This document shows positions 2,954 through 54,100 of a DNA stretch of 64,000 bases, one piece after another. The notes below the pieces were generated by a model. It saw only the letters and a list, made by a program, of their open reading frames with translations. It was not told where the DNA came from and did not search any database. The position numbers were made by a program, and so were the translations under genes. Each line of letters starts with the position of its first letter. The stretch's first letter is position 1. The DNA comes from Naegleria gruberi (taxonomy: Eukaryota). The DNA lies in NCBI GenBank assembly GCA_000004985.1, contig GG738869.1, one strand, 5' to 3'.

Positions 2954-3212
2954 ATTATTATAAACATATTTGTAAATATTATTTTTCATGAGTTGTGAAT
3001 CTGTTTCATTTAAAACATAAAATTTTGCTTTTAAATTTGGCGCCAAAGCATTTCTTGCTAACACAAGAATTTAAAAAAATACTCAACACAACTTCCACTA
3101 AAAACCATCATCACACTTTCAGAGTTTTACTTTGATAAACATTTTTATTCCGAACAAGTCAACACTCTTTGAAGAACTCACACTTAAATAATTAGTGGAT
3201 AATTATTTCGAG

Positions 3213-21618: not shown

Positions 21619-22950
21619 ATGGGTAAGGAAAAGTCACACATTAACGTTGTCGTCATTGGTCACGTCGACGCTGGTAAGTCAACTACTACTGGTCACTTGA
21701 TCTACAAGTGTGGTGGTATTGATAAGAGAGTCATTGAAAAGTTCGAAAAGGAAGCTGCTGAAATGGGTAAATCCTCATTCAAGTATGCTTGGGTTTTGGA
21801 CAAGTTGAAGGCTGAAAGAGAAAGAGGTATCACTATTGATATTGCTCTCTGGAAGTTCGAATCTAAGAAGTACGTCTTCACCATCATTGATGCTCCAGGT
21901 CACAGAGATTTCATTAAGAACATGATTACTGGTACCTCCCAAGCTGACGTTGCTATCTTGGTTGTTGACTCAACTAACGGTGGTTTCGAAGCTGGTTTCT
22001 CCAAGGATGGTCAAACTAGAGAACACGCTTTGCTCGCCTACACTTTGGGTATTAAGCAAATGATTGTCTGTATGAACAAGTTCGATGATGAATCTGTCAA
22101 ATACTCTGATAAGAGATATGAAGAAATCAAGTCTGAAGTTGGTAGATACTTGAAGTCTTTGGGTTTCCAAACTGAAGAAGGTAAGCCAAACTGTGTCCAA
22201 TTCGTCCCAATTTCTGGTTGGACTGGTGACAACATGATTGAAAAGTCTGACAAGATGCCATGGTACAAGGGACCATGTCTTTTGGATGCTTTGGATAACT
22301 TGGTTGAACCTGTTAGACCAACTGATAAGCCATTGAGATTGCCACTCCAAGATGTTTACAAGATTGGTGGTATTGGTACTGTCCCAGTCGGTAGAGTTGA
22401 AACTGGTAAATTGAAGCCAGGTATGGTTGTTCACTTTGCTCCAGGTCAAGCTGCTGATACTGAAGTTAAGTCTGTCGAAATGCATCACACTTCTGTCCCA
22501 GAAGCTGGTCCAGGTGACAATGTTGGTTTCAACGTTAAGGGTTTGTCCACCACTGATATTAAGAGAGGTTATGTTGCTTCTGATGCTAAGAATGATCCAT
22601 CCAGAGAAGCTGTTTCTTTCAATGCTCAAGTTATTATCATGAATCACCCTGGTGAAATCAGAAACGGTTACACTCCAGTTTTGGATTGTCACACCTCCCA
22701 CATTGCTTGCAAGTTCGAAACTATCATTGAAAAGATTGATAGAAGATCTGGTAAGACTCAAGAAGCTAACCCAGAAAAGATCAAGAAGGGTGACTCTGCT
22801 ATCGTCAAGATTGTTCCAACCAAGCCAATGTGTGTTGAAGGTTTCGTTGAATATCCACCTTTGGGTAGATTCGCTGTCAGAGACATGAAGCAAACTGTCG
22901 CTGTCGGTGTTATTAAGTCTGTTGAAAAGAAGGAACCTTCCAAGAAGTAA
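21619..22950 (+). CDS. EEF1A: translation elongation factor 1-alpha (EF-1alpha), intronless, 443 aa
   Basis: GHVDAGKST (G1), [12 protein letters not shown] (variant of NKMD), [31 protein letters not shown]. Lacks the 12-aa opisthokont insertion after WYKG. Closest by eye to kinetoplastid, stramenopile and plant EF-1alpha ([45 protein letters not shown]). Confidence 0.97.
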
Positions 22951-27568: not shown

Positions 27569-29011
27569 ATGTCCAAACCGCCTTCATCACGTTATTGTCT
27601 CATTCAATATCGTGAAATTCCCAGTGAAATTTGGTATTGGATCATTTCATATTCGGATCATGATGAATTATGTAATTTGGAGAAGACTTGTAAATATTTT
27701 CGGAATGAATTGTTATCCAATGAAGGCTACATTCGTCTCATTGTCAATAATTTAATTTTAAATGATGAACAAGAGGATGATACAAAGTCTAAACGAAAAA
27801 CCTCTTCAATTTTGGATGATATTGATTCACCACTTTCTTCACCATCATCATACAATTTTAATAATAATTTTAATAAGGAAAGGATGCAAAATCAATTTAA
27901 AGAAGCCTCCGAAAGGATTATTCATGAAATTATGGCAGGACACTCGACACGATCCAAACAAATATTGAAGGAATATATTTTCGATAGAATTATGAAGGAA
28001 AATGTTTCGGAGAAGAGGAGGGAAGAGTTGATTAATTATTTGGTGGTTGATGAATTCAAGTTTCAATCGGTGAGGGATTTGTATATTGCATGTCATTTGT
28101 ATAATATTAATCCTTTCATTTCGTGGAAACAAACAATTCCATCAACAAGTAATGATGATACCTATAATAGAGCTCTTGTGAATAATTATGAGAGAATTAA
28201 GAGTGGGGATTTGTGTGTTCATTGGAAAGGAGTGGTCATACAGAATAGTCAAAATCTTCTCACTTGTTATTTGATTGATGATGATTTGTTCAATGTGGAA
28301 TTTTCATGTTTACCAATTGTAACATTGACCAATGTTAGGAATATTCAGAATTTTAATTATTTGGAAACCATAGAGTTTATTGGCAGAATTGATTCAATTC
28401 CCTACACGAATAGAACCAATAATAAGGTCATTGGATATATTCAGGGAGTTCACTCACTGGTAGATCAATTCAGTGGGTTAGTTTCTTACTATGTGCCAGC
28501 CTATTCTACAGTGGATCAATCATTCAAAAACAAACTTTATACACTGCTCACAATTCAAGGAAGTGGAACTCTCATAAGAAAGGTTTTATCCAACAGAATT
28601 GAGAATAGAAATCTGTCAATTTCAAAGTACAAACTATCATCGAAACACTATCTAGGAAATGTTATCAAGTGGAATAGTCAAATATTATGGAAGGTCGTTT
28701 TCAATTCTCACAAATACATGTTGGTGAGATCATTTGATAGAAATGACTCTCTGTTGCATATTGTTCATTGTGGAGGTAGTAGTGAAACTCTTCCAACACC
28801 TGGTCAGATAGTTTCACTCAAAGCTACAGCTGTCAATGATCGATTTTTCATTTTAAAAAGTATTGAACAGCTATCAGAAGAAGAGAATGATCAAGCCAAT
28901 GAAAATTTAAGATTCTCCCCAATTGTTAAAATAATTCTAGGATTATTTTGGCTATTTTATGTTTGCATTGCATGGATTGTTTCTCTAATAAGTGGATGGA
29001 AATTATTTTAA
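27569..29011 (+). CDS. F-box-like protein with C-terminal transmembrane helix (480 aa)
   Basis: N-terminal IWYWIISYSDHDELCNLEKTCKYFRNEL (F-box-like); C-terminal ILGLFWLFYVCIAWIVSLISGW hydrophobic helix; ATG 27569. Confidence 0.5.
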   Translation: MSKPPSSRYCLIQYREIPSEIWYWIISYSDHDELCNLEKTCKYFRNELLSNEGYIRLIVNNLILNDEQEDDTKSKRKTSSILDDIDSPLSSPSSYNFNNNFNKERMQNQFKEASERIIHEIMAGHSTRSKQILKEYIFDRIMKENVSEKRREELINYLVVDEFKFQSVRDLYIACHLYNINPFISWKQTIPSTSNDDTYNRALVNNYERIKSGDLCVHWKGVVIQNSQNLLTCYLIDDDLFNVEFSCLPIVTLTNVRNIQNFNYLETIEFIGRIDSIPYTNRTNNKVIGYIQGVHSLVDQFSGLVSYYVPAYSTVDQSFKNKLYTLLTIQGSGTLIRKVLSNRIENRNLSISKYKLSSKHYLGNVIKWNSQILWKVVFNSHKYMLVRSFDRNDSLLHIVHCGGSSETLPTPGQIVSLKATAVNDRFFILKSIEQLSEEENDQANENLRFSPIVKIILGLFWLFYVCIAWIVSLISGWKLF

Positions 29012-31451: not shown

Positions 31452-33554
31452 ATGGGTCAAACAATAACTGCACCATTATGTTCTCTAACACTATTCCTCA
31501 TCCTTCTTTCTCATTGTTTCGTATTGTCATCAGAAATTGCCTCCTTTCAGTCAGTTTCGTTTCCAGTTCTCAATGCAAACATTTTCAAACCAGTTCAAGT
31601 TAAGAATTTCGTTTTCATTCCACCTTACGATTCTCCAAGCTTGGATTTCTGTGCACCATTCGATGAGAAACAAAATTCCTCAGTAAAATTACTTGTAAGC
31701 AAAGTTTCTCGATCCAAGTTTCCAACACAAAACATGATTGAACGAAACTGTTTCAGATATTTTTGCACTCTATCTAACGAAACATCATATGAGCATTATA
31801 ATGCAACTCAGAGAATGTCAAAGAATGAATTATATAGAAGTGAAGTATGTTTTTTAAGAAATAGTCTCATTTCTCACACAGTTTAGTTTGCTTTCCTTTT
31901 TAATTATTGTTTCTTATGCAATAGTTCAGAGGCAAGAACCTTCAGAGAGGCCATTTCCACTACAGAAAGGCCTACGTGTAGAGAGTTTCCCTCCACACAT
32001 CATCAAATGGTTTCACTCATGAATGAACATTGCATTTCTGCTTCTGGCTTACAGAATGAAAATAATTTAACTCAACCAAATATGGATTATTCAAATAGTG
32101 GAAAGGGAATACATTTTGGTATAATGGATGCTCGATTTTTTGAGGCAACTAGTGTTTATTCTCAAACTCTTGCCAAGATTATACCTAAAGATTGGTCAAC
32201 AGACAATTTGGCTTATTTTTTCAAGTCAATGTTTCCAATAGAGTCAACAGGATCACAATTTACATCAAGTGAAATGCCAATGTTCTGCCATTGTGGTAAA
32301 ACCAATGATTTTTCATTTAGATGTTATGACGTTAATCACATGTTTCTAACTCCGTACAGATACCAAACGTCACCAATCATTTTCCTATTCTTTTCCATCG
32401 TGTCAAGTATTTTCTTTGTTTTGGGAGTTGTCATTCCAAGATGCAAGGTAACATTCTCAATATTAACTCAAAAACCAGATTTCAAAAAGGATGAAAATTT
32501 CTATTTTGGAACTTCTGAAGCAACTCATATCATTCTCAGATATTTGAGAGCTATTTGGTTGATTACATTTGGTGATATCAAATTCCATTCGATATTTTGG
32601 AATTCACTCCTCTTGATTTTAATGTACTTGGTAGAAATTACCTACTTTGCAAGAGCATTCACTGAACCAATTTTGAATTTCACAATTGATGACACAGGTG
32701 GAACGATTAGAGCAATTGCATTCGTGTCATTGGCATTGTGTTTCAGTTCAATGATTGTCCATTGGAGTCATACTTTGGATTTAATTAAGAAAGCCAAGTC
32801 TAAGGGAGCTCTTTCCATTTTGAATAGCTCAATTACTTTATCATTTTACTTGTTCATGATTGCATTCTTGGTGGTTGGATTGATTGTGGCTGTGGTCACG
32901 AATGTATTGTCCATGTTTTTCTTTTTCCTTTCTATATTGTATACTACCTTGTCATTAATATTTTGTGTTGTTTTCACACTGGTTGGCGTGACTATTCTTA
33001 TTAGATTGAGAAAAGGAAAGACAAATGTGATTGGTGTCAAGTTGACTAAATCTACCATGGTAATGAATGCTATTAATTTCTTACTAGTCTTGTCAACAGG
33101 TATTTCAATGCCAACATTTTTCATTGGATGGGACATTTTCAGTGTGGAATTGGGGTTATTAAGAGGAACTGTCTTTGACATCTTTTTGCTATTGGCCTCT
33201 AACTGTGTCACTTACATTTTGTACACTCCATTAGAAGGTAAAACTGTTTATGGAGAGACATGTAGTGATACAGTTCATAGAATTCTCAATTGTGAGTGCC
33301 GTTTTCTAATGAGAAGTGAGGATGAGGATGGAAATATTGAGAATGCAAAGAGTTCATCATCAAGAAGTGGACATTTGAGGAATAAGAATGTTGAACATGT
33401 GAAGAAGAATGAACCCATGCCACACTTTGGTTCTCCAAGTTCTAGTCAATCAGATTTGTCAAATGCTTCGATAGATTGTCCTATCGTTCCTCAAGAGGAA
33501 GGTACAGAAATGATGGAGGTTAGTCCTAAAGAATCCAAAGAAGTTATTGAATAA
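31452..33554 (+). CDS. seven-transmembrane receptor-like protein with signal peptide and Cys-containing N-terminal ectodomain; exons 31452..31844 and 31887..33554 (42-nt GTATGT..TTTAG intron; an alternative acceptor at 31949 gives a 105-nt intron)
   Basis: Exon 1 has signal peptide MGQTITAPLCSLTLFLILLSHCFVLS. Exon 2 has seven hydrophobic helices (PIIFLFFSIVSSIFFVLGVVI ... VFDIFLLLASNCVTYILYT) and a C-terminal S-rich cytoplasmic tail. The two track ORFs are in compatible phase. Confidence 0.55.
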
Positions 33555-33614
33555 ATTCCTTCAATCTCTATTCTGATCATATTTGTTCATAAAGTATTTG
33601 GTCAAGAATTAACT

Positions 33615-34728
33615 TTATTGTTGTGGATTCTTGATATCAAATTGAGCCTTGACGTGTCCCTTGTGATTAATAAATGAAACGCTCATGGATGATTTGGTCA
33701 ATTGAACAGCTGTGAATGCAGATTCTTCCAAATAATATTTCAATCCAGGATGAGTTGGATCAATTTCACCCTTATGGACCTTACTTCCACCTCCACTGAC
33801 AATTTGATGCATACAATTATTTCCATTACAATCAAATCCATTCAAATATTGTAAATTGTGATCGTGTCCAGATAAGTAAACATAAAATCCATTCTTTTGA
33901 AGGAATGGTTCCAACTTTTTGGTAATATCAATATTGTCTCCATGTTTACCAGCAGACTTGATTGGATGGTGACCAACAGCAATCTTGAAACTAATTTGGT
34001 TTTCTCTAGAAATACTATCAATAGTTTGTTGCATGAATGCAAGTTGTCTATTGATGTCCTTTTGAAGAACAAGTGCAGTCATATTGACCTTGGAACTGGC
34101 ATAATATGATTCAATCATTGGACTTGTATCAAAAACAGCAAGTAGAATATTCAAATTACCAACCGAAATCACTCTAGCATAATATTCATTAGGCAAATAA
34201 AACTTGCTCGAATGTTTCTCTCCATTATTATACCTCAAACTGTACTCCACTTCAGCATGAGCATACCCATAATATTCATGATTTCCTAATGCATTATAAA
34301 ATTGGTTACCAAAAGCATGACGAGGTCTATAAACATCTTCAAAACTTGATTGAAATTGTGAATCATGAATTCCAGAAACTCCATTCGGATAGAAATTATC
34401 ACCCACTCCAAGAGAGAAATCACAACTTGGAGCCACACTTGTACACCATTTAGCCATTTGTTGGGCAACCTCAAGCTATTTCCAAATTGGAATTATTATC
34501 CAAATTATTTAATTTATATAAATTTACCTGATTATCACCTCCATTTCTTCCATAATCTCCAATCACTGTAAAATAGGCTACATTTCCATCATCGGATGCT
34601 GATAATACTTTCTTATTTCCAACTCCAACCTTCAAATGAAAGCCTTCAACACCCGAACGGATAAAGTTCAACACGACAACAACAAGCAGAACAACCAAGA
34701 GAAAAAATCTATCAACTTGTTGAGACAT
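33615..34728 (-). CDS. tartrate-resistant (type 5)-like acid phosphatase / metallophosphoesterase with signal peptide; exons 34728..34528 and 34469..33615; intron 34527..34470 (58 nt)
   Basis: FTVIGDYGRNGGDNQ | VAQQMAKW..SLGVGDNFY...GNHEY...VGHHP...SGHDHNLQY follows the ACP5 motif order (GDWG, GDNFY, GNHD, GH..., GHDH). Intron boundaries GTAAAT..TTGAG keep the frame. Confidence 0.8.
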
Positions 34729-34848
34729 TTTTTTGTAATGATTTTTTAAAATAGATTATAAGAGGTGTTTCATGGTGAGGAGTTAATTTTTCCAAATAAA
34801 GAAGATTGTAAAAAGATTTTTCATTGAAATACAGTGAATATTGATGAA

Positions 34849-35433
34849 CTAATTAAAAGCACCTCTGATGAGAATTGGATTTTTGGATGCTTGTTTTCTT
34901 CTTGGACAGGCATACTTGGTAATAATCTTGAATTCATAGGTGTACTCCTTTTTCAAGAGTTTTTTACTCTTTCCAATGTAATGTCCATTAAAGTCAACCT
35001 TCTCATCACAAACTAGTTCAAATTTAGCTCCTGATAATTCATTATTTGAACTGAGAATCATGTCAAATTCCACAACAATTCCATGGGCAATATTTGATGG
35101 ATCAAAAAGTGAAATTTTAGGTCCTGGTTTACCAATATTTAAACATCTGTGAAAATAATTATCAATGTAAACAATTTGATAGGATCCATGATTGGTGGCA
35201 CATGTAGCATTGGTTGGAATGACTGGTTTGCATAGATTTACCATATAATATGATCCTGGAATGTAGTCTGGTACTTGCCATCCCGATTGACCGTTATCGG
35301 ATTGGGACAAGTCAACAATCATTCCATCCTTTTCAATAGAACAATCTTGAGAGTAAACTAAACTAACGGAAGAAGAAAGAATAGCACAGAGCAGTAATAA
35401 ACAGCAAAAAGTAACAGTTGAAGTGAAATGCAT
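34849..35433 (-). CDS. secreted protein with MRH-like (mannose-6-phosphate receptor homology) cysteine pattern, 194 aa
   Basis: Signal peptide MHFTSTVTFCCLLLLCAILSSS; spacing DCSIEKDG...YYMVNLC...CATNHGSYQIVYIDNYFHRCLNIG...ELVCDE...YEFKIITKYACP resembles MRH domains of glucosidase II beta/GNPTG/OS-9. This is a family-level guess only. Confidence 0.45.
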   Translation of the reverse strand: MHFTSTVTFCCLLLLCAILSSSVSLVYSQDCSIEKDGMIVDLSQSDNGQSGWQVPDYIPGSYYMVNLCKPVIPTNATCATNHGSYQIVYIDNYFHRCLNIGKPGPKISLFDPSNIAHGIVVEFDMILSSNNELSGAKFELVCDEKVDFNGHYIGKSKKLLKKEYTYEFKIITKYACPRRKQASKNPILIRGAFN

Positions 35434-35673: not shown

Positions 35674-38600
35674 ATGTCGCGCCCGATTTCTTTCTCAAAT
35701 CGACACAATGTTCGAGGGGTGGCGATGTTGTATGTTGGTGGCTTATTGATGATGTTGATGATGATGATAGTTTTGGGATTTGGTGTTCAGGAGGGATCGT
35801 GTACGGTGTATGAAGTGAGAAATTCGACTTCCTTGTGGGACATTGTTCATGGAAATAAGTTGGTACCTGGTGATGAAGGTAAGTATCATGATTTATTCAT
35901 CATTCAATTTGGATGATATGGTGATTAGTGGTATTGAGAGAGGGCAATTATACATGCTATTATCAAAGTACTTGGTATAGAAATATTGTATTGAAAGGTC
36001 TTACTAATGCTCCTATTACTATTAGAGCTGCCAGTGGAGAGAAGGTTTTGGTCGAAGGAGATTTGAATGCTAGTCAAAATTTGTTGAATTTTAATGTAGA
36101 AAACTTTATTCTGAAAGGTATTGAATTTAGATATGGTGATAGAGGACTGAGATTTTTTGGTGCTAGCAATGTTCTATTGGAAGATTTACACATTCATGAT
36201 ACCAGTGATGTTGGTATGGCAATGAACGATCGTGATGTTACCTATTCTAATGTTACAATTAGGGAAGCTTTTGTGTTTTTACTTTATTAGAAACTGGATG
36301 AAAACAGACACGTTCAAATCCACCACACTCATGGTACTGGAGAGTGCTTCTACTTGGGCTGTAATGATGATGCTTGTCGTTTGATTAATTCACTTATTGA
36401 ATATAATTATTGCCATCATACATGTTGCGTTCAAGGTGATGGTATCGAAGTGAAGAGAGGTTCCTACAATAATGTTATTCGCCACAATGTCATTCACGAT
36501 ACTCACTATCCTGGAATTATTGTGTACGGTGCCAACAATGGTATTCCAAATATTATTGATTCCAACATTATTTGGAACGCTGGTGATAATGGTATTCAAA
36601 TTGCTGCTAATACCATTGCTCGTAACAATATTGTACTCAACTCAAAGATGAATGGTATTAGTATTCAACCTAATCAAGGCAATCCAACAGCTGTTATTTT
36701 GGAACATAACACTGTCATTGGAGCTCTCAGTGGGTCGTGTCTCTCTACTTATAGTACATACATTGGTTCAGAGTTTGTGATTGCAAACAATGCATTCTAT
36801 TGTGAGAATGCTAGTGCAATTTCTGAAACCAATGCAAACTCCAAAACTGTCTATCTTTCTAATGTTGTGAAAGGAAAAGTTACAAGCCAATATGCCAGCA
36901 ATATTATTTATGGAACTGGGTTGAGGGATTTTACCAGTACTGCTTCTCTTCCTTTCAACACTTATCCTTCCCTTGGTTCGTCCTTACTTGGAGTTTCAAC
37001 CTACATGGCTAATACATCAACTCCTTTGGATTTTGATGGTCGTGACAGAAGTGCAGCCTCACGTATTGATGCAGGTGCTTATCAACGGGTTGCTCAAAAC
37101 TCACCAACATGGATTCCAGTAGCTGGTTTCAAAGATGGTTGGAGCAGTCCTGCTCAATCAACTTCTCCAAAGCGTGTAAAGCCTGTTCCTTCAGATAATG
37201 CACATTACAATAGAACAACTTTTATCATCACTCCACAAAATGGTTCTTCATTATTTGACTTGATGAGCACTTTACAACCTGGAGACACCTTATTGGTACG
37301 AGCAGGCACTTATCCTGTTAAATTTGCCAATGCTTGGTTTACCAAGATTGTCCTCTCTGGATCTCCATCAAATCCAATTACTGTTTCTGCATGGCCTGGT
37401 GAAAGAGTTGTTTTGTATGGTGATCCATACGGATCTCAAAACATAATCAACTTGGAAGTTATGTACTTTGTCTTCAGAGGTTTTGAAATGGTTTATGGTT
37501 CCAGAGGAATTAGACTTCATGAATCCTCTCATTCAATCTTTGAAGACTTGAACGTGCACCACACTTGGGCAAATGCAATCTCTGCAAATGATAAGGGTGT
37601 TCATTATCAAAATATTACATTCAGAAATAATCGGGTTGCTCATACTCATGGTACTGGAGAATGTTTTTATTTGGGTTGCCAAGATGCTGCTTGTATCTTT
37701 TCAGATTCTCTCATTGAAGGAAATCTATGTGAATACACGTGTTGTGAACAAGGTGATGGTATTGAACTAAAGCATGGTTCTTACAATAACATAGTTAGAA
37801 ATAACGTTGTTCACGACACACCATATCCAGGTATTACCACTTATACTACTGGGGGCAATGCTCCAAATATTATTGAGGGAAATTTCATTTTTAATACTGG
37901 TGATAATGGTATTCAATGTACATCAGGTCAAATTATTCGAAACAATATCATTGTCAATGCAAGCATCAATGGTATTGATATTCACGATGATGGAGCTGTT
38001 TCTGATCTTACCATCACTCATAACACTGTAATTAACGCCAAAATTGCTTGTTTTTCTGCTGGTGGTTTACAAACAGCTTCAAACGTAATTATTGCAAACA
38101 ATGCTTTGTTTTGTAAGTTTCATACTTTAAATGATTAACTAATCATTATAGGTGACAACTCTCAATACGGATATTATGAGAGATATTTATCTGATAAGAA
38201 GACTAGCACTTTTTATTCGGCAAGAAACTATTATTCAGGAAAAACAAATGGTGTTGGCATTGATTTGGTAAAGGTCAATAACAGTTCTCATGACATACTG
38301 TTGGGTATTGATTTACTGAATGCCTATCCAACATCGATCAGTAACCTTATTGGAGCGGGTAGCCTAAAGTATTCAACACCTTTGGATTTTAATGGAAATT
38401 CCAGATCATCAACTCCAGATGTTGGCGCTTATCAATATTCAACCCCTTCAAATCCAGGTTGGGTTGCTAAAGGATGGTTCAAGAATGGATATAACTCAGT
38501 ATCCGTGTCAGGAAATTGGGAATATCCAAAGAATGTCCTTATTCCTCAAGACGACGATTCTTATATTGGAATGGTTTATCACATCACAGAAGCCAATTAT

Positions 38601-40077
38601 TCATCTTCAAACTGCAAGTATGAAAATATATGGAAAACCATGGCATTGTTGAAACCTGGAGATACTATGATTTTCCATTCAGGAACATTACTAACCCAAG
38701 TCTGTGGGCATGGTTCTTTCTACAGAAGATTAACGGTTATTGGTAGCCCAAATCGTCCAGTGGTAATTAAGGTTGCGGATGGAGAAAGTGTAACAATTCA
38801 AGGCGACATCGGTCAGTCACAAAATATCATGGATGTTGCTTTTTACAATGTCCTTTTTAAAGGATTCAATATGAAATATGGATCCAGAGGTCAGTATCAT
38901 TTTTGAGAAATATTAACTTTTGACAGGTCTTAGAGTCTATGAAGCCCAAAACACAACATTTGAAGGATTGGAAATTTCTGAAACAGCAGATGTTGCTTTC
39001 GCAGGAAACGATCTAAGAGGAGATTACAACAATGTAACTATCAGAAGAGTTAAAGTTCACCACACGCATGGTACAGGGGAATGTTTCTATTTGGGTTGTA
39101 ATTTTGGTGAGTGCATTTGGAGAAATTCCATCATTGAGTACAACCATTGTTCGTAAGTTTCATTGTTTTTTTGAGATACTAAGAAAAAATCATTTAGACA
39201 CACTTGTTGTGAACAAGGTGATGGTATAGAATTAAAGGCTGGTTCGTATGGAAATATTATTCGCCACAATGTAATTCATGATACTATCTATCCTGGAATC
39301 ACATTGTACACTCCAATGGAGGGCAAGCCACCAAATGTTGTCTATGGTAATATTGTGTGGAATACTCAAGATAATGGAATACAAGTAACAGGAAATACAA
39401 TTCTCATGAATAATATTGTAATGAATGCCAAATATTATGGAATTTCAATTCAAGAAAATCAACAGAGGGTGAACGGACTTGGTAACATTGAAAATGTTGC
39501 AATTCTCCACAATACAGTTGTTGGGGTAAGCTCTAAAACCAGTGGAGCTTGTTTTGCCACTAGTGGAACAAATTCTGGAAAAGGAAACATTGTAATTGCT
39601 GGAAATGCCTTTTACTGTTCAGATGCCAAGGCAACACGTGAAGTTAATGTTCATCCAAACACTAAGTATGGTATTAATGTTGTTAGCGGAACCAGTACAA
39701 TGTCAGGTACCTTAATTGGCGACTTGGTGTCAGACTTTTTGGATGTTTCTTCAATTCCTTACAATTTGTATCCAAGAAAGGGAGGGAAATTATATGGCTC
39801 ATCAAATCTCACAATTTACGATCTAGTTTCAAAAGATTTCAATGGTCTTGTTAGATCTTCACAAAGAATGGATGTTGGTGCCCTTCAATATATTGAAGGA
39901 AAAGATAACAACCCAGGTTGGATTCCAAAGGATGAATTCAAACCATTTACTGATCTTTCGCCTCTTGCAAGTCAGTCCACCAATACCACAATGTCCGATG
40001 CCCAAATAATTCTCAATAATGTAACTCTCAACTATTTTTTGGTCATTCTAATGGTATTTGTTTCAATTTGCTTATAA
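35674..40077 (+). CDS. ~1400-aa secreted, probably GPI-anchored protein built from three tandem right-handed parallel beta-helix (PbH1 / pectate-lyase-fold) modules; 6 exons: 35674..35878, 35929..36274, 36308..38112, 38152..38889, 38927..39152, 39198..40077
   Basis: N-terminal signal/TM (LLMMLMMMIVLGFG). Each module has an N-terminal block L..G.T....PITI.A..GE.V...GD, then HTHGTGECFYLGC, CC.QGDGIE.K.GSYNN..R.NV.HDT.YPGI, then NxGDNGIQ PbH1 repeats and PLDF.G..RS...D.GAYQ. C-terminus is Ser/Thr-rich followed by hydrophobic tail NYFLVILMVFVSICL, a GPI-signal-like arrangement. Introns of 50, 33 (putative), 39, 37 and 45 nt all keep the frame (g+tg=Val, t+gt=Cys, g+gt=Gly, tc+a=Ser). Confidence 0.7.
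35929..39990 (+). repeat. three tandem intragenic ~430-codon modules (approx. 35929-37190, 37190-38520, 38520-39990) of the beta-helix gene
   Basis: The blocks HTHGTGECFYLGC / EYN.C..TCC.QGDGIE.K.GSYNN / NxGDNGIQ recur three times at ~1.3-kb spacing in the same reading direction, about 50-60% identical by eye. Confidence 0.6.
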
Positions 40078-40131: not shown

Positions 40132-41535
40132 ATGTCATCACAACTTCTCTACTCGATGTATTGCATTTTGGAGGGCAACTTTCCAATGGATAAACAACAT
40201 ATTCAGGACTTCAACCAAAGAAAATCACCCGATTGGATGAATCTTTCTAAACCGTTAATTAGCAAGACCAATATTTGGCATCAGGCCTCAAGTTTTCATC
40301 AATTACAAATTAAATCAACACTCTGTGGATCAACGTGCACCGAATTAATTTCAGTGCTGGATTTTGAGGATACTTCATGTTGTTCTCTCTTTTTAATATT
40401 CGGAGGAAGATCTTCCGAAATCAGGGAAGGTACTTGCATGGTAAATGATGAAAAACAATTGTATTTGATAGAGATGGTTGATAATGAATTTTCCACATGT
40501 TTGAGCTATGTCTATGATGAAAATGTGTTGAATGAAAAACAAATTCCACAGGCACGATACGGCCATTCTAGTGTCTTTGATAAAGATAGAAAGTTAATGT
40601 ATGTCTTTGGTGGGATGGCTGGAGGGAAGTGTCATAATGATTTGGCAATTTTTGATGTAGTGACAAGTTTGTGGACAATTGTTAATTTTGCAAATGTTGG
40701 ATGCTTGATTCTTCCACAAGAAAGATATGGACATAATTGTGCCATTTACAAAAATTGGATGTTTGTTTGTGGAGGAAGGGATAGCTCAGGAAATATTTTA
40801 GGAGGAATTCAAGCTATGGATTTGGATCGTTGTTTATGGATGAATATTCAAGTGGAATCATTGAGTGGAAGAAGTTTCTTTACTATGGACGTGATTGAGA
40901 GAAGAGATGATAAAATTGAGATGATCATTGCTGGAGGAATTAGAAAAGATCTCAACGAAAAACCACTACAAAGACTTACCATCACTGTTGGGAATGAAAG
41001 ATCTATACACTGCTCAGTTAATCCAATAGAAAATCAAGAACTGACTTGGGATAAGTACGGACATTGCTCTGTATTCAAAAATCAAACCTTGCTATTGGTA
41101 GGAGGTCAGAATCAAGATCACTCTCTAGATTGTAATAGCTTGGAATTTAGTATTGAGAGTGAAACCTTCTCCTCATTCTCATACTTTCTACAGCCATCTA
41201 CACATTGCAGTTTGTCGTTCCTGAACATTTCGCAAGATCTTGATGTCAATCAGAATGATGGATTCTATTTTGCTTCATTACTTTATGACAGCACTTTGAA
41301 TTGCTATGTTGTTGGGGGAAATTCGATAGCTACTTATAGAACTACACCATCAATAGATGTTTCAGAAAACGTTATCAGTGATACGTGGGTAAAGATTGTC
41401 AGCTTTTTGAATTACGATGACTTGAAGAAATTATGTCTAGTTTCCAAACGATTCTACACAATATTTACTGCAGATGTGATTTGGAAGCCAATTCTGTTTA
41501 AATTCTTTGCAGAAAAATTGATAATACCCGTATAA
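40132..41535 (+). CDS. kelch-repeat (beta-propeller) protein with C-terminal F-box-like motif (467 aa)
   Basis: Kelch-type units with GG doublets and ARYGHS / ERYGHNC / DKYGHCS motifs; C-terminal DTWVKIVSFLNYDDLKKLCLVSKRFYTIFTADVIW; ATG 40132. Confidence 0.7.
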   Translation: MSSQLLYSMYCILEGNFPMDKQHIQDFNQRKSPDWMNLSKPLISKTNIWHQASSFHQLQIKSTLCGSTCTELISVLDFEDTSCCSLFLIFGGRSSEIREGTCMVNDEKQLYLIEMVDNEFSTCLSYVYDENVLNEKQIPQARYGHSSVFDKDRKLMYVFGGMAGGKCHNDLAIFDVVTSLWTIVNFANVGCLILPQERYGHNCAIYKNWMFVCGGRDSSGNILGGIQAMDLDRCLWMNIQVESLSGRSFFTMDVIERRDDKIEMIIAGGIRKDLNEKPLQRLTITVGNERSIHCSVNPIENQELTWDKYGHCSVFKNQTLLLVGGQNQDHSLDCNSLEFSIESETFSSFSYFLQPSTHCSLSFLNISQDLDVNQNDGFYFASLLYDSTLNCYVVGGNSIATYRTTPSIDVSENVISDTWVKIVSFLNYDDLKKLCLVSKRFYTIFTADVIWKPILFKFFAEKLIIPV

Positions 41536-41606
41536 TATGTGATTATAAGAAACAATTTCAGAAACTCATTCAAGACAAAATTTCTTCAATTAATGATAAT
41601 AACAAG

Positions 41607-42230
41607 TTGTCCAATAAGGTGTGGCCTTTCAAAAGGAGATCATATTACGAGAGGGAAATCAACTTTACTCCACCAAATATCACATGCCCAATAAGGACTT
41701 TCAAAATTTCAGTTGTAGGAGAACCATTTATGGTGAAAGCATTTATTTCCAAAATTACAGGTAAAGATGTGAACAAGATAACTGAGGAGGAACCAATTCA
41801 CATGGTGCAATTTTATTTCCATCACAATATCTATCACTTCTTGATGGATACTAGAACTAATGACATTCCAGAAGATCAACAGCAATCGTTCAGCCTCAAA
41901 TTAGTTTGCATTCGATTAGGAAGAGCTAATCAATCTATCGCAAATTCTCATGATGTTACCTGTCCTACTATAGTTCTAGGTCTCGAAGAAGAGCTTTACA
42001 AGTTTTCAATATTTAAAAAGAGTTACAATAGTCAATACTTTCAACATGTGCTACCATTCGCAACTAGTAAGGATTTGACTTTAATATTCAAACAAATTAC
42101 TTCAATTGGAGCATTTGAGAAGATTTCAACAGAGACTGGTTTTGGAATGTATCAGTTATTGGAATTCTTTCTTGATTGTATCAAAAATGATCCAACACAA
42201 TCTTCAACCTCTGGTTGTGAACTTAATTGA
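41607..42230 (+). CDS. hypothetical protein with degenerate small-GTPase-like core (possible pseudo-GTPase); true start unresolved (track ORF begins at TTG, first ATG ~41727)
   Basis: KISVVGEPFMVKAFISKITGKDVNK...HMVQFYF...FLMDTRTND parallels the P-loop/switch I/DTAG layout of the Ran-like gene at 13421..14702, but lacks GK[ST] and the catalytic Gln. Confidence 0.3.
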   Translation: MSNKVWPFKRRSYYEREINFTPPNITCPIRTFKISVVGEPFMVKAFISKITGKDVNKITEEEPIHMVQFYFHHNIYHFLMDTRTNDIPEDQQQSFSLKLVCIRLGRANQSIANSHDVTCPTIVLGLEEELYKFSIFKKSYNSQYFQHVLPFATSKDLTLIFKQITSIGAFEKISTETGFGMYQLLEFFLDCIKNDPTQSSTSGCELN

Positions 42231-42524: not shown

Positions 42525-43091
42525 ATGGGTTTGAAATTAAGTATTGATGCAGTTGAGGAAATGTTGATTCCTCCACCAGGAATGCGTATCACTCCAGTTC
42601 TTTTCACTGCCTTATTCTGTGGAGCATTCCTAGTATTGAAATTGATCATTCAGGACATTATTCTATTTGTAATGAAGAGAAGAAGCAAATATTTAGAGGT
42701 TGAGGAAGGGGAAGGATCATCAAACGATGCAGCATTACCAATGAGTACATTCGCACTCGTTCAGAAAATGCAACAAGATGACAAGAATTCCATTTTCACC
42801 TTTCTTATTGTTTTGATTCCATACTTGATCTACTCTCAATCCAGTTACTTTAATTACACCTACTCATCTATTGATAAGCAAGTTTATTGGAGTTATACAT
42901 GCATTGCCAATAGCATTTTTGGATGTCTTTTCATTTGCATCTTTACAATTTTAAGAGTCGTTCATTCAATTATTCTCAAAGTTGCTCCAAAATTGAATAT
43001 TGGTTTTTGGCTTGCAAATCATGTCCTATCCATTCTCTTTATTTTGTATGCAATCAGTCTTGCCTTTACCTATCATTACACATTCATGTAA
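42525..43091 (+). CDS. hypothetical polytopic membrane protein (about 4 TM helices), N-terminal MG
   Basis: ATG 42525; hydrophobic helices VLFTALFCGAFLVLKLIIQDIILFV, IFTFLIVLIPYLIY, IFGCLFICIFTILRVV, VLSILFILYAISLAF. Confidence 0.45.
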   Translation: MGLKLSIDAVEEMLIPPPGMRITPVLFTALFCGAFLVLKLIIQDIILFVMKRRSKYLEVEEGEGSSNDAALPMSTFALVQKMQQDDKNSIFTFLIVLIPYLIYSQSSYFNYTYSSIDKQVYWSYTCIANSIFGCLFICIFTILRVVHSIILKVAPKLNIGFWLANHVLSILFILYAISLAFTYHYTFM

Positions 43092-43544: not shown

Positions 43545-44285
43545 ATGTCTCAACACCACCAATGCAACACCTACACTGAAGCTCTTGATCAGATTCATCT
43601 GCAATCCCTCGAATATTATCAAGAAGTTGTCGATCAACAAGGAGGTTGGGAGAATTACAAAGTCACACCAGAACAAGCTCGATACTACATCAATAAGAAG
43701 AAGCATACTTATCATATTTGGATGGGTGAGATGAAGAATGTTCATTTGGGAGAATCTGTTGTGAAGGATTTGAGAGATTTCATCAAGTATTTGGATCATG
43801 AGGAGGTGAGATTATTGTGGGATGAAGAATTGGTCAAGAGTCAAACTATTCACGAAACAATTGCAAAAAATTGTAAAGAAAGTTGTAAGCATGATGATTT
43901 GAAAGTTTTTTATAGAGAGTTTAGTTCTGGAAGTAAGGCCATTTCGAATCGTGAATTTGTAGTTTCTAGAAATATTTATCAAGATCCCAAATTGGAAAAT
44001 GTGATGTGGTTGTGTACTCATACACCAATGGACTTTCCAGATTATGAACACAAGAATGCACCAAAGAATTCATCATGTGTAAGAGGAAAGGTCATGCTGA
44101 CTTCATGGAGATTTGAAAAGTTACCATCCACTATTGAAGGAAAATCATGTTTTAACATTTCTATAATGACACATTCAGAACCTGGAGGTTGGGTAACTGC
44201 TTCTTTGTTTAATAATAGTGCAGGTGATAGACCAGCAGCAACAGTTTCGAGATTGGTTAAATATTTACAAACAACCAAACAATAA
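43545..44285 (+). CDS. START (StAR-related lipid-transfer / Bet v1-like) domain protein, 246 aa
   Basis: GW..Y.....Y...KK..Y.....G......V..L.DF....E.R..WD..L.....I.......ISNREFVVSRN...D.....V....T.......VRG......W.F..LP.....SC; the ISNREFVVSRN motif is diagnostic for START domains. Confidence 0.7.
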   Translation: MSQHHQCNTYTEALDQIHLQSLEYYQEVVDQQGGWENYKVTPEQARYYINKKKHTYHIWMGEMKNVHLGESVVKDLRDFIKYLDHEEVRLLWDEELVKSQTIHETIAKNCKESCKHDDLKVFYREFSSGSKAISNREFVVSRNIYQDPKLENVMWLCTHTPMDFPDYEHKNAPKNSSCVRGKVMLTSWRFEKLPSTIEGKSCFNISIMTHSEPGGWVTASLFNNSAGDRPAATVSRLVKYLQTTKQ

Positions 44286-51119: not shown

Positions 51120-54100
51120 ATGGAGGAAAAAATTCCTGCGATTTTTCATCGAGAAGTAATCACAAAATTTGATTTTCTACCCAAGCTAAAGCATTCGACT
51201 ATTGCAAGACATTCAGAATTTCAAAAATTCCTATCAAATTTTCTACGCGAATACAATTCTTCAAAGAACCAAATTCCTTCAAGACGATATGGTAAATATG
51301 CAACCACTAAAGAAGTGAGTGCCATCATCAAGGAAATTCTAGAGTGGTACTGGCTAGATACGGAGGAGGAGAAGGATAGCACTGCTCTTGGATTAATTCT
51401 GGAGAGAATGGGATTTCCGAATCATGTGATTAGTTAAGGTCTGGAAGTGTGTAATTTTATTGGTCATTTCCATTTGGATACTTGTTTGGTTTTCTTGTTA
51501 TCTTCTTATAAGTGGTTGCTGAATGAATCCTTTTTCAAGAAACAACAACACAATAGCAATTTCATGGGCAAGATTAATGATGGTGAATGTGTTAATGCTT
51601 TCAATTATGTTAGAGATTTGGAACGTGCAAGAGAACAGTTTGATTCATCGTATTCGGAAAGAACAACTTCTATTGGTGATGATGAAATTCAACATGTTCT
51701 TGATGGACATATGGTCAATTGGATTTTATTACTCCAAAGAGTGTTAAAGATGAGACCAGAATTGCAGAGGCAGATAAAGGAGGATGGAGGTGCTGATTGG
51801 TTGGTTCGTGCAGTGTCTTTAAAAACACATCACCCAGTAATTCATAATATGGCAAGTGCTAAGAAGTTTCTCCAATTAATGAAGAAATTTACAACTTTAC
51901 AAGGTCAACCGTATGCAGAAATGAATTTTGATGAAAAATTTGAAATGCTCAAGGTTGTGACAAGAACATTTCTTGTTACAATGAATGGTTTAGAGCAAGT
52001 CCACAAATGGTTTTTGGATGGTAATCAGGATTTATCTGTGAATCAACTAGAGAATGATAGAGATCACTTTCGTATAAGAATAGTTGAAATTTGCATTAGA
52101 AATTCAACAAGCTTACAAGGACTTGCAGGAGACTTATACTCAGACAATAGTGATCCAAGAGCAATTGTCAAACTCAGAAGTTCACCGAAAGGAAAATACT
52201 CAAAGAGTCGTTATAGATTATATTTTGGTGTTAACACAACCTTGACTGTATTATTTTCCTTTCCAAGAATGGGATTGACATCTCAATTATTTCTTTCAGA
52301 AAATTCAGATTTGGAAAGTTTAAAGGATTTGAAAACTGTTGCAGGAAATTATTGGGGAGAAGAAACAGTTCTCAAGATTAAGCAAGATTTTTGTAATAGC
52401 ATCAATAATGGTAAAAAGCCAACAGTTTCAAAGCAAGATTTTTCAAAATGCAAACATTTGGAAAGAATTTCACAAGAATTTAGAGCTGCTCGAGTTTTGA
52501 AAAGTTATCAAGATTCTCCAATTACAATTGCCGGTTATTCATTTCATCAATTATGTCAAAATACCAGTGGAATGCATTCGTATAAGTATACTTATTATTG
52601 TGGAGATTTGGCTGATGAATTGCCATTGGGAGTGGAAGATGTGAAGGAGTTTTTTATTCCTAGTCATCTCAATCCAGATTTGTACAAACCAGAAAATCAA
52701 TTGAAATTAACAGTTCGTTTATCGCTCTTAAATACTCCAATATCTCCTACGATTAATATTTCAGAATATCAAGTTATTGAAGATGTTGGTCTTTTCACAG
52801 ATGGTTGTGGTTTCATTTCTCCTGATTTAGCAAGAGAAATTTATAGAAAAATTAAACAGGCAGAATCTAGAGAGAAAGTTCACGTATTTGAGAATGCACA
52901 ATACATGGTTGATGTACAGATGATTTATCAAGATTCTGATCCAGTTGAGGATGATATGGATGATAATGTTCCTTCAGCATTTCAGATTCGTTTTAGAGGA
53001 GCAAAAGGCATGCTCCTACAAAATCCAAATGTGAAAGGAATTGTATTAAGAGAATCTATGGTTAAATTCAACGTAGATTTAGATGAAGATCTCGATGAGG
53101 AAGACGAAAGTCTTTCGAATATCCATGTAGTCGGTTATTCAGAACCATCTAATTTTGCATTCGCCAACTCAACAATTTTGTACATGATGAGTGGATGTGT
53201 TGATGGAGGTGAGAAATTTGAGGGAATAATTATGAATATGTGGAAGGATTATGTTAATGACATTTTAAAAACCTATTCTAATGAAGATACTTCCCAATTG
53301 ATGAAGAAATATTTCAAAGAAGGCGATTTTCATGCCTTAAACATTTTCGGATTGACCAAAGATGTTGCACTCGCTTTCCTTGCAGGACCATTCAGAACTC
53401 AATTGTTGAATCTTAAACTCCCTATTCAAAATGCTCGGAGAGTTTACGGAGTTTGTGATCCACTCGAAGTGTTAGAACCAGATGAAGTTTTTGTTAGAAT
53501 TAGAATGGAAGATGGCACTTTGAAAACCTTGGAAGGAACTATTGCCATCACTAAAGAGCCATGTCTTCATAGAGGTGATTTACGTTTGCTGAAAGCTAAG
53601 AAAATAGAGAGTTTAGAATATCTTTCAGAAGTAATTGTTTTTCCTATTAAGGGAGAAAAAAGACCTATTCCTAACATGATTACAGGAAGTGATTTGGATG
53701 GTGACAAATATCTTGTCATTTGGGATGAACCTCTTGTTTCATCTTTCGTCCAACAATTCGAACCTGGAAACTTTGATGAAGAAATTGAAGGAGAAAAACG
53801 TAATTTCGAACCAGATGTTTTTAAGGACTGGATAGGATTGAGACATTCCTATGTAGATTCGTATGGATATGAATGGAGTAAAGGTGAGAATTGGAAAACC
53901 ATGCAAAGACTTTCAGATATTGTAAATATGGCTGTCGATGCACCTAAAAAGGGGAAAACATTCAAGGCAGGTGCAATGGAGAAGGATATTGTTAGAAACT
54001 TTCCGAAATATCCTCATTTCCATAATTCAAAGACAAAGGAAGCTGTTAGAGTGAGTACTTCAGTTGTTGGGAAAATGTATGATTTTGCAATTGATAGAGT

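What the first reader, a model, noticed from the sequence alone, without database searches (positions are those of the whole stretch)
35674..40077. Tri-modular GPI-anchored beta-helix surface protein spliced through ultra-short introns, one removing an in-frame TAG
Six exons encode a ~1400-aa protein consisting of a signal sequence, three tandem ~430-aa modules and a Ser/Thr stalk with a C-terminal hydrophobic GPI-type signal. Each module has an N-terminal block, a HTHGTGECFYLGC / CC.QGDGIE Cys-rich segment, NxGDNGIQ right-handed beta-helix repeats and a PLDF.G..RS...D.GAYQ tail. The architecture suggests a cell-surface carbohydrate-binding or carbohydrate-active protein (pectate-lyase fold) generated by internal triplication. 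The introns are extreme: 50, 39, 37 and 45 nt, plus a candidate 33-nt intron (36275..36307). That 33-nt intron is the only way to remove an in-frame TAG at 36288-36290, which otherwise interrupts module 1 exactly where the paralogous modules read straight through (NVTIRE..HVQIHHTHG versus NITFRNNRVAHTHG and NVTIRRVKVHHTHG).
Basis: seen in the sequence. Interest (0 to 1): 0.65.

Follow-up and report, generated by a model that had tools for sequence, protein, structure and literature searches.

The report
Naegleria beta-helix gene, broken splice site
This is a real Naegleria gruberi gene for a three-module, probably GPI-anchored beta-helix surface protein with ordinary short introns, and its in-frame TAG most likely lies in a fifth, 45-nt intron whose first dinucleotide reads GG instead of GT in this assembly, not in a special 33-nt intron.

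Summary
The window is Naegleria gruberi NEG-M. The gene at 35674-40077 (+) is real. It encodes about 1395 aa: an N-terminal signal-like segment, three ~430-aa right-handed beta-helix modules and a hydrophobic GPI-type tail. It is collinear with two Willaertia magna proteins (54-55% identity over 98% of its length).

Four GT-AG introns (50, 39, 37, 45 nt) are confirmed by that collinearity. Their lengths are normal for this organism, not extreme.

The in-frame TAG at 36288-36290 is real. It also leaves a 4-aa insertion at a tight turn where none of 169 family modules has one.

Homology points instead to a 45-nt unit, 36263-36307 (AG|GGAAGC...AACAG|A). Its removal gives NVTIR|HVQIH, exactly as in Willaertia. 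It looks like a normal intron except for G in place of T at position +2 (36264).

Most likely this is a single-base defect: an assembly error, a null allele or a recent mutation. No N. gruberi protein model for this gene was found. cDNA and resequencing are needed. Interest is modest.

The parts
35674..35878 (+). Exon 1. It holds the start codon (ATG 35674; an alternative ATG at 35722 gives a more typical signal peptide), a hydrophobic signal-like segment and the start of module 1, up to ...LVPGDE.
   Evidence: The junction PGDE|VVLREGNY is collinear with Willaertia PGDELILQEGVY.
35879..35928 (+). Intron 1, 50 nt, GTAAGT...GATTAG.
   Evidence: Removing it restores gap-free alignment to the Willaertia orthologues.
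35929..36262 (+). Exon 2, the N-terminal half of module 1, ending ...YSNVTI(R).
36263..36307 (+). A 45-nt intron-like insert, GGAAGC...TAG(36288-36290)...AACAG, in phase 2 inside an Arg codon (AG|A). Position +2 (36264) is G where T is expected. Excising it gives NVTIR|HVQIH.
   Evidence: With it removed, the alignment to 16 homologous modules is gap-free. None of 169 family modules has an insertion here. GC is 0.31. Termini of the type G.AAG...YAG occur at 13 of 127,906 positions.
36275..36307 (+). It is the only plausible canonical rescue, or cryptic donor, and would leave +4 aa (EAFV).
36273..36290 (+). An 18-nt GT-AG candidate (GTGTTTTTACTTTATTAG). It would leave +9 aa (EAFKLDENR).
36308..38112 (+). 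Exon 3: the rest of module 1 (to ~37148) and most of module 2.
   Evidence: AlphaFold model of 37143-38112, pLDDT 92.
38113..38151 (+). Intron, 39 nt, GTAAGT...ATTATAG.
   Evidence: NNALFC|DNSQYGYYERYL against Willaertia NNALYCEDSYGYYEGYL.
38152..38889 (+). Exon 4: the end of module 2 (to ~38498) and the start of module 3.
38890..38926 (+). Intron, 37 nt, GTCAGT...TTGACAG, phase 1 at GSRG|LRV.
   Evidence: Willaertia P0001 has an intron at the same relative position and phase, but in module 2.
38927..39152 (+). Exon 5, module 3 including HHTHGTGECFYLGC.
39153..39197 (+). Intron, 45 nt, GTAAGT...CATTTAG.
   Evidence: YNHCS|HTCCEQGDG against Willaertia YNYCHHTCCGQGDG.
39198..40077 (+). Exon 6: the rest of module 3 (to ~39945), a short S/T-rich linker, a candidate omega region (MSDA), the hydrophobic tail LNYFLVILMVFVSICL and the TAA stop at 40075-40077.

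Best explanation
The locus is a single Naegleria gruberi gene. It encodes a secreted, probably GPI-anchored protein of about 1395 aa made of three tandem right-handed beta-helix modules. Each module resembles a polysaccharide depolymerase (lyase, hydrolase or epimerase type).

The family is mainly bacterial. Among the two closest bacterial relatives that score above threshold are MYXO-CTERM surface-anchored proteins. The triplication predates the Naegleria/Willaertia split.

The gene has five introns of ordinary Naegleria size. Four are canonical. The fifth is a 45-nt intron (36263-36307) inside an Arg codon, and it contains the in-frame TAG. In this assembly its donor reads AG|GGAAGC instead of AG|GTAAGC.

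I take this as a single-base defect at 36264. It could be a base-call or assembly error, one null haplotype of a heterozygous diploid, or a very recent mutation. The intended mRNA reads NVTIR|HVQIH.

Shown here: the gene, the fold, the orthology, the four canonical introns, the position and intron-like ends of the 45-nt insert, and the absence of a protein model. Inferred: GPI anchoring, carbohydrate-active function, and the cause and consequence of the GG.
For: Organism. Exact protein matches identify N. gruberi NEG-M (EF-1alpha EFC44182, EFC44173, EFC44185, EFC44181, EFC44278, EFC44190).

Orthology. Willaertia P0001 and P0002 are 54-55% identical over 98% of the length. Modules are orthologous one-to-one at 54-60%, against 40-47% between paralogous modules.

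The 45-nt unit. Willaertia reads NITIRHVQIH and NVTIRHVQIH with no intron there. Excising 36263-36307 makes module 1 align gap-free with 16 modules. None of 169 family module instances has a residue inserted at this column. The site is a 2-residue turn after a strand in the model. The ends are AG|G-AAG...CAG|A, and such termini occur at about 1e-4 of positions. Its length of 45 nt falls inside the 37-59 nt range of the 13 introns compared. Its GC is 0.31 against 0.34-0.44 for the exons.

No sign of old decay. All 43 family-invariant residues are kept in all three N. gruberi modules. Module 1 is as conserved as modules 2 and 3. There is no other stop or frameshift in 4.2 kb.

Plausibility of a defective allele or error. 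Naegleria is described as mainly a heterozygous diploid (PMC9928731). The adjacent kelch/F-box gene also carries a single-site frame break. Neither gene has an N. gruberi protein model, although the search tool does return N. gruberi proteins for a neighbouring gene.
Against: No transcript evidence and no independent read-level evidence for base 36264 could be obtained. Metagenome scans and exact look-ups found nothing.

Neither Willaertia orthologue has an intron at this position. The intron is therefore lineage-specific, and no conserved GT can be shown in a relative.

A GT-AG solution that keeps the frame does exist (33 nt). N. fowleri gene models were judged to need a 30-bp minimum intron length (PMC8296547), so 33 nt is not out of range. 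Loops at beta-helix turns can tolerate insertions.

A 45-nt insert with intron-like ends could in principle be an ordinary insertion in a dying gene.

GPI anchoring and enzymatic activity rest on sequence features and fold only.
Confidence: 0.6

Rival explanations
1. A genuine 33-nt GT-AG spliceosomal intron (36275-36307) is the native way this gene is expressed, giving a 1399-aa protein with NVTIREAFVHVQIHH.
For: It is the only canonical, in-frame, stop-free excision that keeps both conserved flanks. It shares the CAG acceptor at 36307 with the 45-nt unit. Minimum intron length in N. fowleri gene models was assessed at about 30 bp. The rest of the gene is intact, which suggests it is still expressed.
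Against: The donor GTTTTT has none of A3, A4 or G5. Those bases are present in 12 of 13 introns compared, counting the window candidates and the Willaertia introns. At 33 nt it is shorter than all of them (37-59 nt). It leaves a 4-aa insertion at a 2-residue turn where 0 of 169 family modules have an insertion. The 12 nt it leaves in the exon (GGAAGCTTTTGT) start with a near-perfect donor that lacks only the T.
Confidence: 0.2
2. A recent pseudogene or null allele. The T-to-G change is real, the intron is retained, and translation stops at TAG after 188 aa (or the mRNA is degraded). The locus no longer makes the tri-modular protein in NEG-M.
For: GG is essentially incompatible with U2-type splicing (general knowledge). 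No N. gruberi protein model exists for the locus, and no N. fowleri or N. lovaniensis homologue was returned, so the gene appears dispensable within the genus. The neighbouring gene is also disrupted and has no model. NEG-M is a long-cultured axenic strain (general knowledge).
Against: There is no second disabling lesion in 4.2 kb. All 43 family-invariant residues are intact in all three modules, and module 1 is no more diverged than the others. Any inactivation must therefore be very recent or confined to one haplotype.
Confidence: 0.25
3. N. gruberi has a class of ultra-short, weak-site mini-introns. On this view an 18-nt intron (36273-36290, GTGTTTTTACTTTATTAG) is removed here, and a 20-nt one (41530-41549, GTATAATATGTGATTATAAG) is removed in the neighbouring kelch/F-box gene. 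Both would have been missed by annotation.
For: Two adjacent unannotated genes are each interrupted at a site where a GT...TWAG|AAAC segment of 18 or 20 nt restores the frame. The two sites share 10 of 11 bases, TTAT[T/A]AGAAAC (read directly from the sequences). For the kelch gene, collinearity with N. lovaniensis favours a short excision.
Against: No introns of 18-20 nt are known from Heterolobosea (my knowledge; nothing was found in the literature searches). All verified introns here are at least 37 nt and have GTAAGT-type donors. The 18-nt solution leaves a 9-aa insertion with no precedent in 169 modules. The kelch break is equally well explained by a 1-nt indel, for example in the A5 run at 41513-41517. 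The shared 11-mer was noticed post hoc in AT-rich sequence; my rough estimate is p~0.04.
Confidence: 0.05
4. The ORF blocks are separate genes, or the TAG is read through or recoded, so no splicing is needed.
For: The frame is identical on both sides of the TAG.
Against: The locus is collinear with single 1366-1373-aa Willaertia genes. The window otherwise uses standard stops, and exact matches to annotated proteins end at TAA, TAG or TGA. The 15 extra codons (EAFVFLLY*KLDEN) have no counterpart in 169 modules.
Confidence: 0.02

Closest known systems
Willaertia magna hypothetical proteins ABK040_001621 (1373 aa) and ABK040_015021 (1366 aa)
   Same: Same architecture: signal peptide, three beta-helix modules and a hydrophobic GPI-type tail. 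They are 54-55% identical over 98% of the length, the modules are orthologous one-to-one, and they carry the same Cys-rich motifs.
   Different: The intron positions are entirely different: 3 introns in module 2 of one gene and 1 in module 1 of the other, all 48-59 nt and GTAAGT. Neither has an intron or an insertion at NVTIR|HVQIH, and neither has an in-frame stop.
Acanthamoeba castellanii ACA1_157590 (right-handed beta-helix region protein, 944 aa)
   Same: It has the same module type (33-39% identity), is secreted and has tandem modules.
   Different: It has two modules joined by a long Pro/Thr/Ser linker. They were duplicated independently (76% identical to each other). It lacks the HTCC cysteine pair.
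Bacterial single-module relatives, including MYXO-CTERM-anchored proteins (for example P0033, P0036)
   Same: They are 41-46% identical over ~290 aa and share the H.THGTGEC.YLGC and QGDGIE.K.GSY.N..R.N..HD motifs. They also have a C-terminal sorting signal for surface anchoring.
   Different: They have a single module. Anchoring is through MYXO-CTERM (TIGR03901) rather than a GPI-type tail. They lack the TCC pair.
Right-handed beta-helix carbohydrate-active enzymes: PL9 Pel9A (1ru4), PL31 alginate lyase (6kfn), PL6 lyases, GH141 BT_1002 (5mqp), RbmB
   Different: Sequence identity is only 14-19%, and there was no sequence hit to any PDB chain. The catalytic residues were not mapped. Lyase, hydrolase, epimerase and adhesin folds score equally, so the activity is undetermined.
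Non-canonical or very short spliceosomal introns in protists (for example the 35-nt CT-AG intron of Giardia, PMC1201135 abstract; ~25-nt introns of Paramecium, PMC5014332 abstract)
   Same: A short intron in an excavate-type protist with a non-GT first dinucleotide would resemble the Giardia case.
   Different: In those organisms the odd sites are conserved and supported by cDNA. Here there is no transcript evidence, all other introns of the gene are canonical, and the oddity is one base away from a consensus donor.

Membership tests
Right-handed parallel beta-helix (Pfam PF13229 / pectate-lyase-like superfamily) | A significant profile match above the curated cut-off | tested here: met
   PF13229 scores E=1e-33, 116.6 bits against a cut-off of 25.9, in six stretches. 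PF12708 scores 29 bits against a cut-off of 27.
Right-handed parallel beta-helix (Pfam PF13229 / pectate-lyase-like superfamily) | A predicted three-stranded right-handed beta-helix fold | tested here: met
Polysaccharide lyase (PL6/PL9/PL31-type) | A Ca2+-binding acidic cluster plus a Lys/Arg Bronsted base placed as in characterised lyases | not tested
   Invariant residues (E, D, E, K, R, H and D in QGDGIE.K...R.N..HD) are compatible with such a site, but no residue-level superposition was available.
Polysaccharide lyase (PL6/PL9/PL31-type) | Sequence membership of a CAZy or Pfam lyase family | tested here: inconclusive
   My Pfam scan of the N. gruberi protein gave only PF13229 and PF12708. 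The homologues carry precomputed PF22842 (Pel9A-like) hits. There was no NCBIfam hit and no PDB sequence hit.
GPI-anchored surface protein | An N-terminal signal peptide | tested here: met
   A hydrophobic segment spans residues ~16-38 (maximum Kyte-Doolittle value 2.64). The orthologues have clean signal peptides. No dedicated predictor was available.
GPI-anchored surface protein | A C-terminal signal: small omega residues, a ~10-aa spacer and a 12-20-aa hydrophobic tail running to the last residue | tested here: met
   The C-terminus reads ...MSDA-QIILNNVTLN-YFLVILMVFVSICL. Willaertia, P0032 and P0041 have the same layout. This was by inspection only.
GPI-anchored surface protein | Release by PI-PLC or detection of the lipid anchor | not testable with these tools
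   This needs an experiment.
U2-type spliceosomal intron: the 45-nt unit 36263-36307 | GT (or GC) at the 5' end | tested here: not met
   The sequence reads GG (36263-36264).
U2-type spliceosomal intron: the 45-nt unit 36263-36307 | AG at the 3' end, the rest of the donor consensus, and a length and composition typical of the species | tested here: met
   It ends ..AACAG. Positions +3 to +5 are AAG, preceded by exonic AG. Its 45 nt lies within the 37-59 nt range and its GC is 0.31.
U2-type spliceosomal intron: the 45-nt unit 36263-36307 | Removal restores frame and collinearity with homologues | tested here: met
   Removal gives NVTIR|HVQIH, as in Willaertia. The alignment to 16 modules is gap-free, and 0 of 169 modules have an insertion here.
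U2-type spliceosomal intron: the 45-nt unit 36263-36307 | A splice junction observed in cDNA | not testable with these tools
   No transcript data were reachable. Look-ups failed.
   The donor is GTTTTT against GTAAGT-type donors in 12 of 13 introns. At 33 nt it is below the 37-nt minimum seen. It leaves +4 aa, which is unprecedented in 169 modules.

The most novel reading that the evidence does not exclude
N. gruberi may really splice this transcript through a non-standard event. That could be a GG-AG 45-nt intron, or ultra-short weak-donor introns of 18-33 nt. The adjacent kelch/F-box gene may use a similar 20- or 32-nt GTATAA...AG element. Such introns would be invisible to gene predictors, which would explain why two large conserved genes lying side by side have no protein models in the reference annotation.
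Probability: 0.12. Interest if true: 0.6.

Novelty: new member of a known kind. Interest (0 to 1): 0.3.

Why it matters
Practically, a 4.4-kb conserved gene and the ~2.1-kb gene next to it appear to lack protein models in the N. gruberi reference. Each is interrupted by a one-site defect, so such lesions, or errors, can hide real genes from annotation.

Biologically, the protein belongs to a beta-helix family shared by bacterivorous amoebae (Naegleria, Willaertia, Acanthamoeba) and by bacteria that include Myxococcota. In both groups the protein carries a C-terminal surface-anchoring signal. It is a reasonable candidate for a surface enzyme acting on bacterial or cyst-wall polysaccharides, and a candidate case of inter-domain gene transfer.

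The splice-site oddity would matter only if transcripts show that it is processed. Otherwise it is a sequencing error, an allelic variant or a pseudogene lesion.

Tried and rejected
1. I looked for an annotated N. gruberi model. The homology search returned none for this gene. I first suspected that the tool hides the source genome, because the neighbouring kelch gene also returned none. A control with EFC44278 returned the N. gruberi protein itself, so I rejected that suspicion. Accession numbering (D2VG19...D2VG22) leaves two slots between the flanking genes. These may belong to other ORFs, for example 42525-43091.

2. Exact look-ups of candidate models (33-, 18- and 39-nt solutions, the truncated 188-aa product, and four kelch variants) found nothing.

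3. I tried to check base 36264 independently, without success. Metagenome protein-pattern and DNA-pattern scans found nothing. A public metagenome (ERR1078381 / ERZ929261) holds contigs 99.4% identical to window 32944-34747, but look-ups of the ORFs around the TAG found no contig.

4. I checked whether the 45-nt insert is a repeat or a local duplication. There was no match in the window at up to 3 mismatches.

5. I enumerated AT-AC and GC-AG alternatives. None keeps the conserved flanks.

6. Synteny with N. lovaniensis around the kelch gene is not conserved, so it was uninformative.

The afdb50 library was unavailable.

8. NCBIfam gave no family name, and PDB sequence search gave no hit.

9. 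The literature held no record of this locus. The N. gruberi genome paper itself could not be read.


Full report
**Origin of the window**

Exact look-ups of single-exon ORFs show that the window is Naegleria gruberi NEG-M, on a 747,259-bp scaffold.
- EF-1alpha at 21619-22950 is EFC44182.
- 1349-2953 is EFC44173.
- 18969-20048 is EFC44181.
- 27569-29011 is EFC44185.
- 34849-35433(-) is EFC44278 and 43545-44285 is EFC44190.

The window has 34% GC.

**The observation**

The sequence is as described. From ATG 35674 to TAA 40075-40077 the + strand carries a chain of long ORFs. Four canonical introns join them:

| Intron | Length | Ends |
|---|---|---|
| 35879-35928 | 50 nt | GTAAGT..TAG |
| 38113-38151 | 39 nt | GTAAGT..TAG |
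| 38890-38926 | 37 nt | GTCAGT..CAG |
| 39153-39197 | 45 nt | GTAAGT..TAG |

TAG 36288-36290 is in frame, and the frame is identical upstream and downstream of it.

The spliced product matches Pfam Beta_helix PF13229 (E=1e-33) and PF12708. It has 30 Cys and 18 N-glycosylation sequons. Hydrophobic segments occur only at residues ~16-38 and in the last ~16 residues.

**One gene, three modules**

The best homologues are two Willaertia magna proteins of 1373 and 1366 aa, 54-55% identical over 98% of the query. They have the same layout: signal peptide, three modules, hydrophobic tail.

In a 17-sequence module alignment, the N. gruberi modules 1, 2 and 3 pair with Willaertia modules 1, 2 and 3 at 54-60% identity. 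Paralogous modules are only 40-47% identical. The triplication therefore predates the Naegleria/Willaertia split. The two-module Acanthamoeba protein ACA1_157590 duplicated independently, its modules being 76% identical to each other.

All four canonical intron junctions are validated by gap-free collinearity with Willaertia:
- PGDE|VVLREG
- NNALFC|DNSQYGYY
- GSRG|LRV
- NHCS|HTCC

All 43 family-invariant residues are present in each N. gruberi module.

**Fold and likely function**

An AlphaFold model of the contiguous exon part of module 2 (37143-38112) has pLDDT 92.2 and pTM 0.90. It is a right-handed beta-helix.

The fold claim is therefore confirmed, but lyase, hydrolase, epimerase and binding functions cannot be told apart.

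An exhaustive HMMER scan found 986 cluster representatives at E<=1e-3 and 192 at E<=1e-30. Nearly all are single-module proteins of 400-600 aa.
- The two closest bacterial relatives that score above threshold carry MYXO-CTERM sorting domains (TIGR03901).
- Two single-module relatives (P0032, P0041) look eukaryotic, with GPI-type tails.

The C-terminus here (...MSDA-QIILNNVTLN-YFLVILMVFVSICL) fits a GPI signal. The 'Ser/Thr stalk' is only about 13 residues long.

**Intron size**

The introns are not extreme for this organism.
- Other likely introns in the window are 39-57 nt with GTAAGT-type donors (8782-8838, 17614-17666, 31845-31886, 34476-34527(-), 62649-62687).
- The Willaertia orthologues have introns of 48-59 nt.
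- N. gruberi averages 1.7 exons per gene. N. fowleri gene models led authors to set a 30-bp minimum intron length (PMC8296547).

Five introns in 4.2 kb is above the average density but unremarkable.

**The TAG**

Only four canonical excisions remove the TAG and keep the frame open:

| Excision | Length | Note |
|---|---|---|
| 36252-36290 | 39 nt | deletes the conserved VTIR |
| 36267-36290 | 24 nt | GC-AG |
| 36273-36290 | 18 nt | |

1. Its donor GTTTTT lacks the A3, A4 and G5 seen in 12 of 13 comparison introns.
2. It is shorter than any of them.
3. It yields NVTIREAFVHVQIHH.

Willaertia reads NITIRHVQIH and NVTIRHVQIH with no intron there. Every one of 16 aligned modules joins the R directly to the next strand. 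In an HMM alignment of 169 module instances from the wider family, none has any inserted residue at that column. In the model the site is a two-residue turn immediately after a beta-strand.

By the same collinearity criterion that validates the other four introns, the non-coding unit is 45 nt: 36263-36307, GGAAGCTTTTGTGTTTTTACTTTATTAGAAACTGGATGAAAACAG. It lies in phase 2 of an Arg codon (ATT AG|...|A CAC). Its features are those of an intron:
- It is preceded by AG and has +1 G and +3 to +5 AAG.
- It ends CAG.
- It is 45 nt long, like intron 5.
- It is AT-rich (GC 0.31) and contains an in-frame stop.

Segments with G.AAG...YAG termini at this spacing occur at 13 of 127,906 positions in the window. 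The only departure from a consensus donor that would prevent splicing is G instead of T at +2 (36264). The insert is not a repeat or a local duplication.

**Interpretation**

The most economical reading is a canonical 45-nt intron with a single-base lesion at its donor. I could not determine which of the following caused it:
- a base-call or assembly error;
- one null haplotype (Naegleria is described as mainly a heterozygous diploid; PMC9928731);
- a very recent fixed mutation.

There is no second lesion in 4.2 kb, and module 1 is as well conserved as modules 2 and 3. This excludes an old pseudogene.

Otherwise the product is a 188-aa fragment.

**Annotation status**

The homology search returned no N. 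gruberi protein for this gene, and none for the adjacent kelch/F-box gene. A control query with the upstream neighbour returned the N. gruberi entry at 100%. The absence is therefore real for the collection searched (NCBI, UniProt, EukProt).

The kelch/F-box gene (40132-42230) is also interrupted. It stops at TAA 41533-41535 and then continues in another frame. The two parts can be joined in only two ways:
- by GTATAA...AG segments of 20, 32, 77 or 89 nt;
- by a 1-nt indel, for example in the A5 run at 41513-41517.

Two neighbouring genes without models, each with a one-site defect, fit either local sequence errors or null alleles that defeated gene prediction. With much lower probability they fit a class of unrecognised mini-introns. 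The two sites share TTAT[T/A]AGAAAC, but I noticed this post hoc.

**What could not be done**

No cDNA or read-level data were reachable.
- Metagenome scans found nothing.
- A public metagenome (ERR1078381) contains contigs 99.4% identical to window 32944-34747, but no contig covering 36264 could be retrieved.
- Candidate gene models are not in the protein collection.

**Verdict**

The gene, its modular beta-helix architecture and its four short introns are real and correctly described. The protein is a new member of a known, mostly bacterial beta-helix family, with clear orthologues in Willaertia.

The claimed special feature, a 33-nt intron rescuing an in-frame TAG, is not the best-supported reading. 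The TAG sits in a 45-nt intron-like insert whose donor is one base away from consensus. Interest is modest (0.3). It would rise only if transcripts show that the GG-AG unit or a sub-35-nt weak-donor intron is really spliced.

Noticed in passing
window 40132-42230 (+), break at 41513-41561: The adjacent kelch/F-box gene stops at TAA 41533-41535 and continues in another frame (ORF 41607-42230). Only GTATAA...AG segments of 20, 32, 77 or 89 nt, or a 1-nt indel (for example in the A5 run at 41513-41517), join the two parts. No N. gruberi protein model was returned for it; the best hit was N. lovaniensis C9374_001329 at 33% identity.
   Followed up: partly
window 36284-36294 and 41543-41553: The two interruption sites share 10 of 11 bases (TTATTAGAAAC and TTATAAGAAAC). 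In each case an AG is followed by AAAC and, 12-17 nt later, by CAG. This may be chance in AT-rich DNA.
   Followed up: no
window 6290-6390 (+): The SNF2-family helicase ORF 3195-6383 and the following ORF 6302-7897 overlap by ~80 nt in different frames, in a low-complexity Q/N/T/S-rich region with no consensus intron. The candidates are GTTTTT..CAG (23 nt) and GTTTCA..AAG (47 nt). This may be a frameshift, a weak intron or two separate genes.
   Followed up: no
window 38890-38926; L001 4703-4759: The N. gruberi intron at GSRG|LRV (phase 1, module 3) lies at the same relative position and phase as an intron in module 2 of Willaertia P0001, which is a paralogous module. This means either parallel gain at an AG|GT site or an intron older than the triplication.
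   Followed up: partly
window 35674-40077; L001 3001-7279; L002 3001-7160: None of the five N. gruberi intron positions is shared with the four introns of its two Willaertia orthologues. This indicates high intron turnover in this gene.
   Followed up: partly
proteins P0033, P0036 (bacterial relatives) versus window 39946-40074: Close bacterial homologues end in MYXO-CTERM sorting domains, while the amoebal ones end in GPI-type signals. The same beta-helix module is thus lipid- or surface-anchored through its C-terminus in both domains of life. This hints at gene transfer between Myxococcota-like bacteria and amoebae.
   Followed up: partly
L004 / L005 (ENA ERZ929261, Logan ERR1078381) versus window 32944-34747: A public 'metagenome' run contains ~1.8-kb contigs 99.39% identical (11 mismatches in 1804 nt) to this N. 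gruberi region. They come from another strain or haplotype and could be mined for the base at 36264.
   Followed up: partly
window 51447-56555 (+): A 1702-aa ORF combines a eukaryotic RNA-dependent RNA polymerase domain (PF05183) with Sel1 repeats and a C-terminal TLDc domain. This is an unusual combination.
   Followed up: no
window 21619-22950 (+): The EF-1alpha protein is identical to two N. gruberi accessions on two contigs (EFC44182 and EFC50231), so the gene is duplicated in the assembly.
   Followed up: no
window 42525-43091 (+): A 188-aa ATG-initiated ORF rich in hydrophobic segments lies between the kelch/F-box gene and the START-domain gene. It may be one of the annotated models that occupy the accession gap D2VG20/D2VG21.
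   Followed up: no
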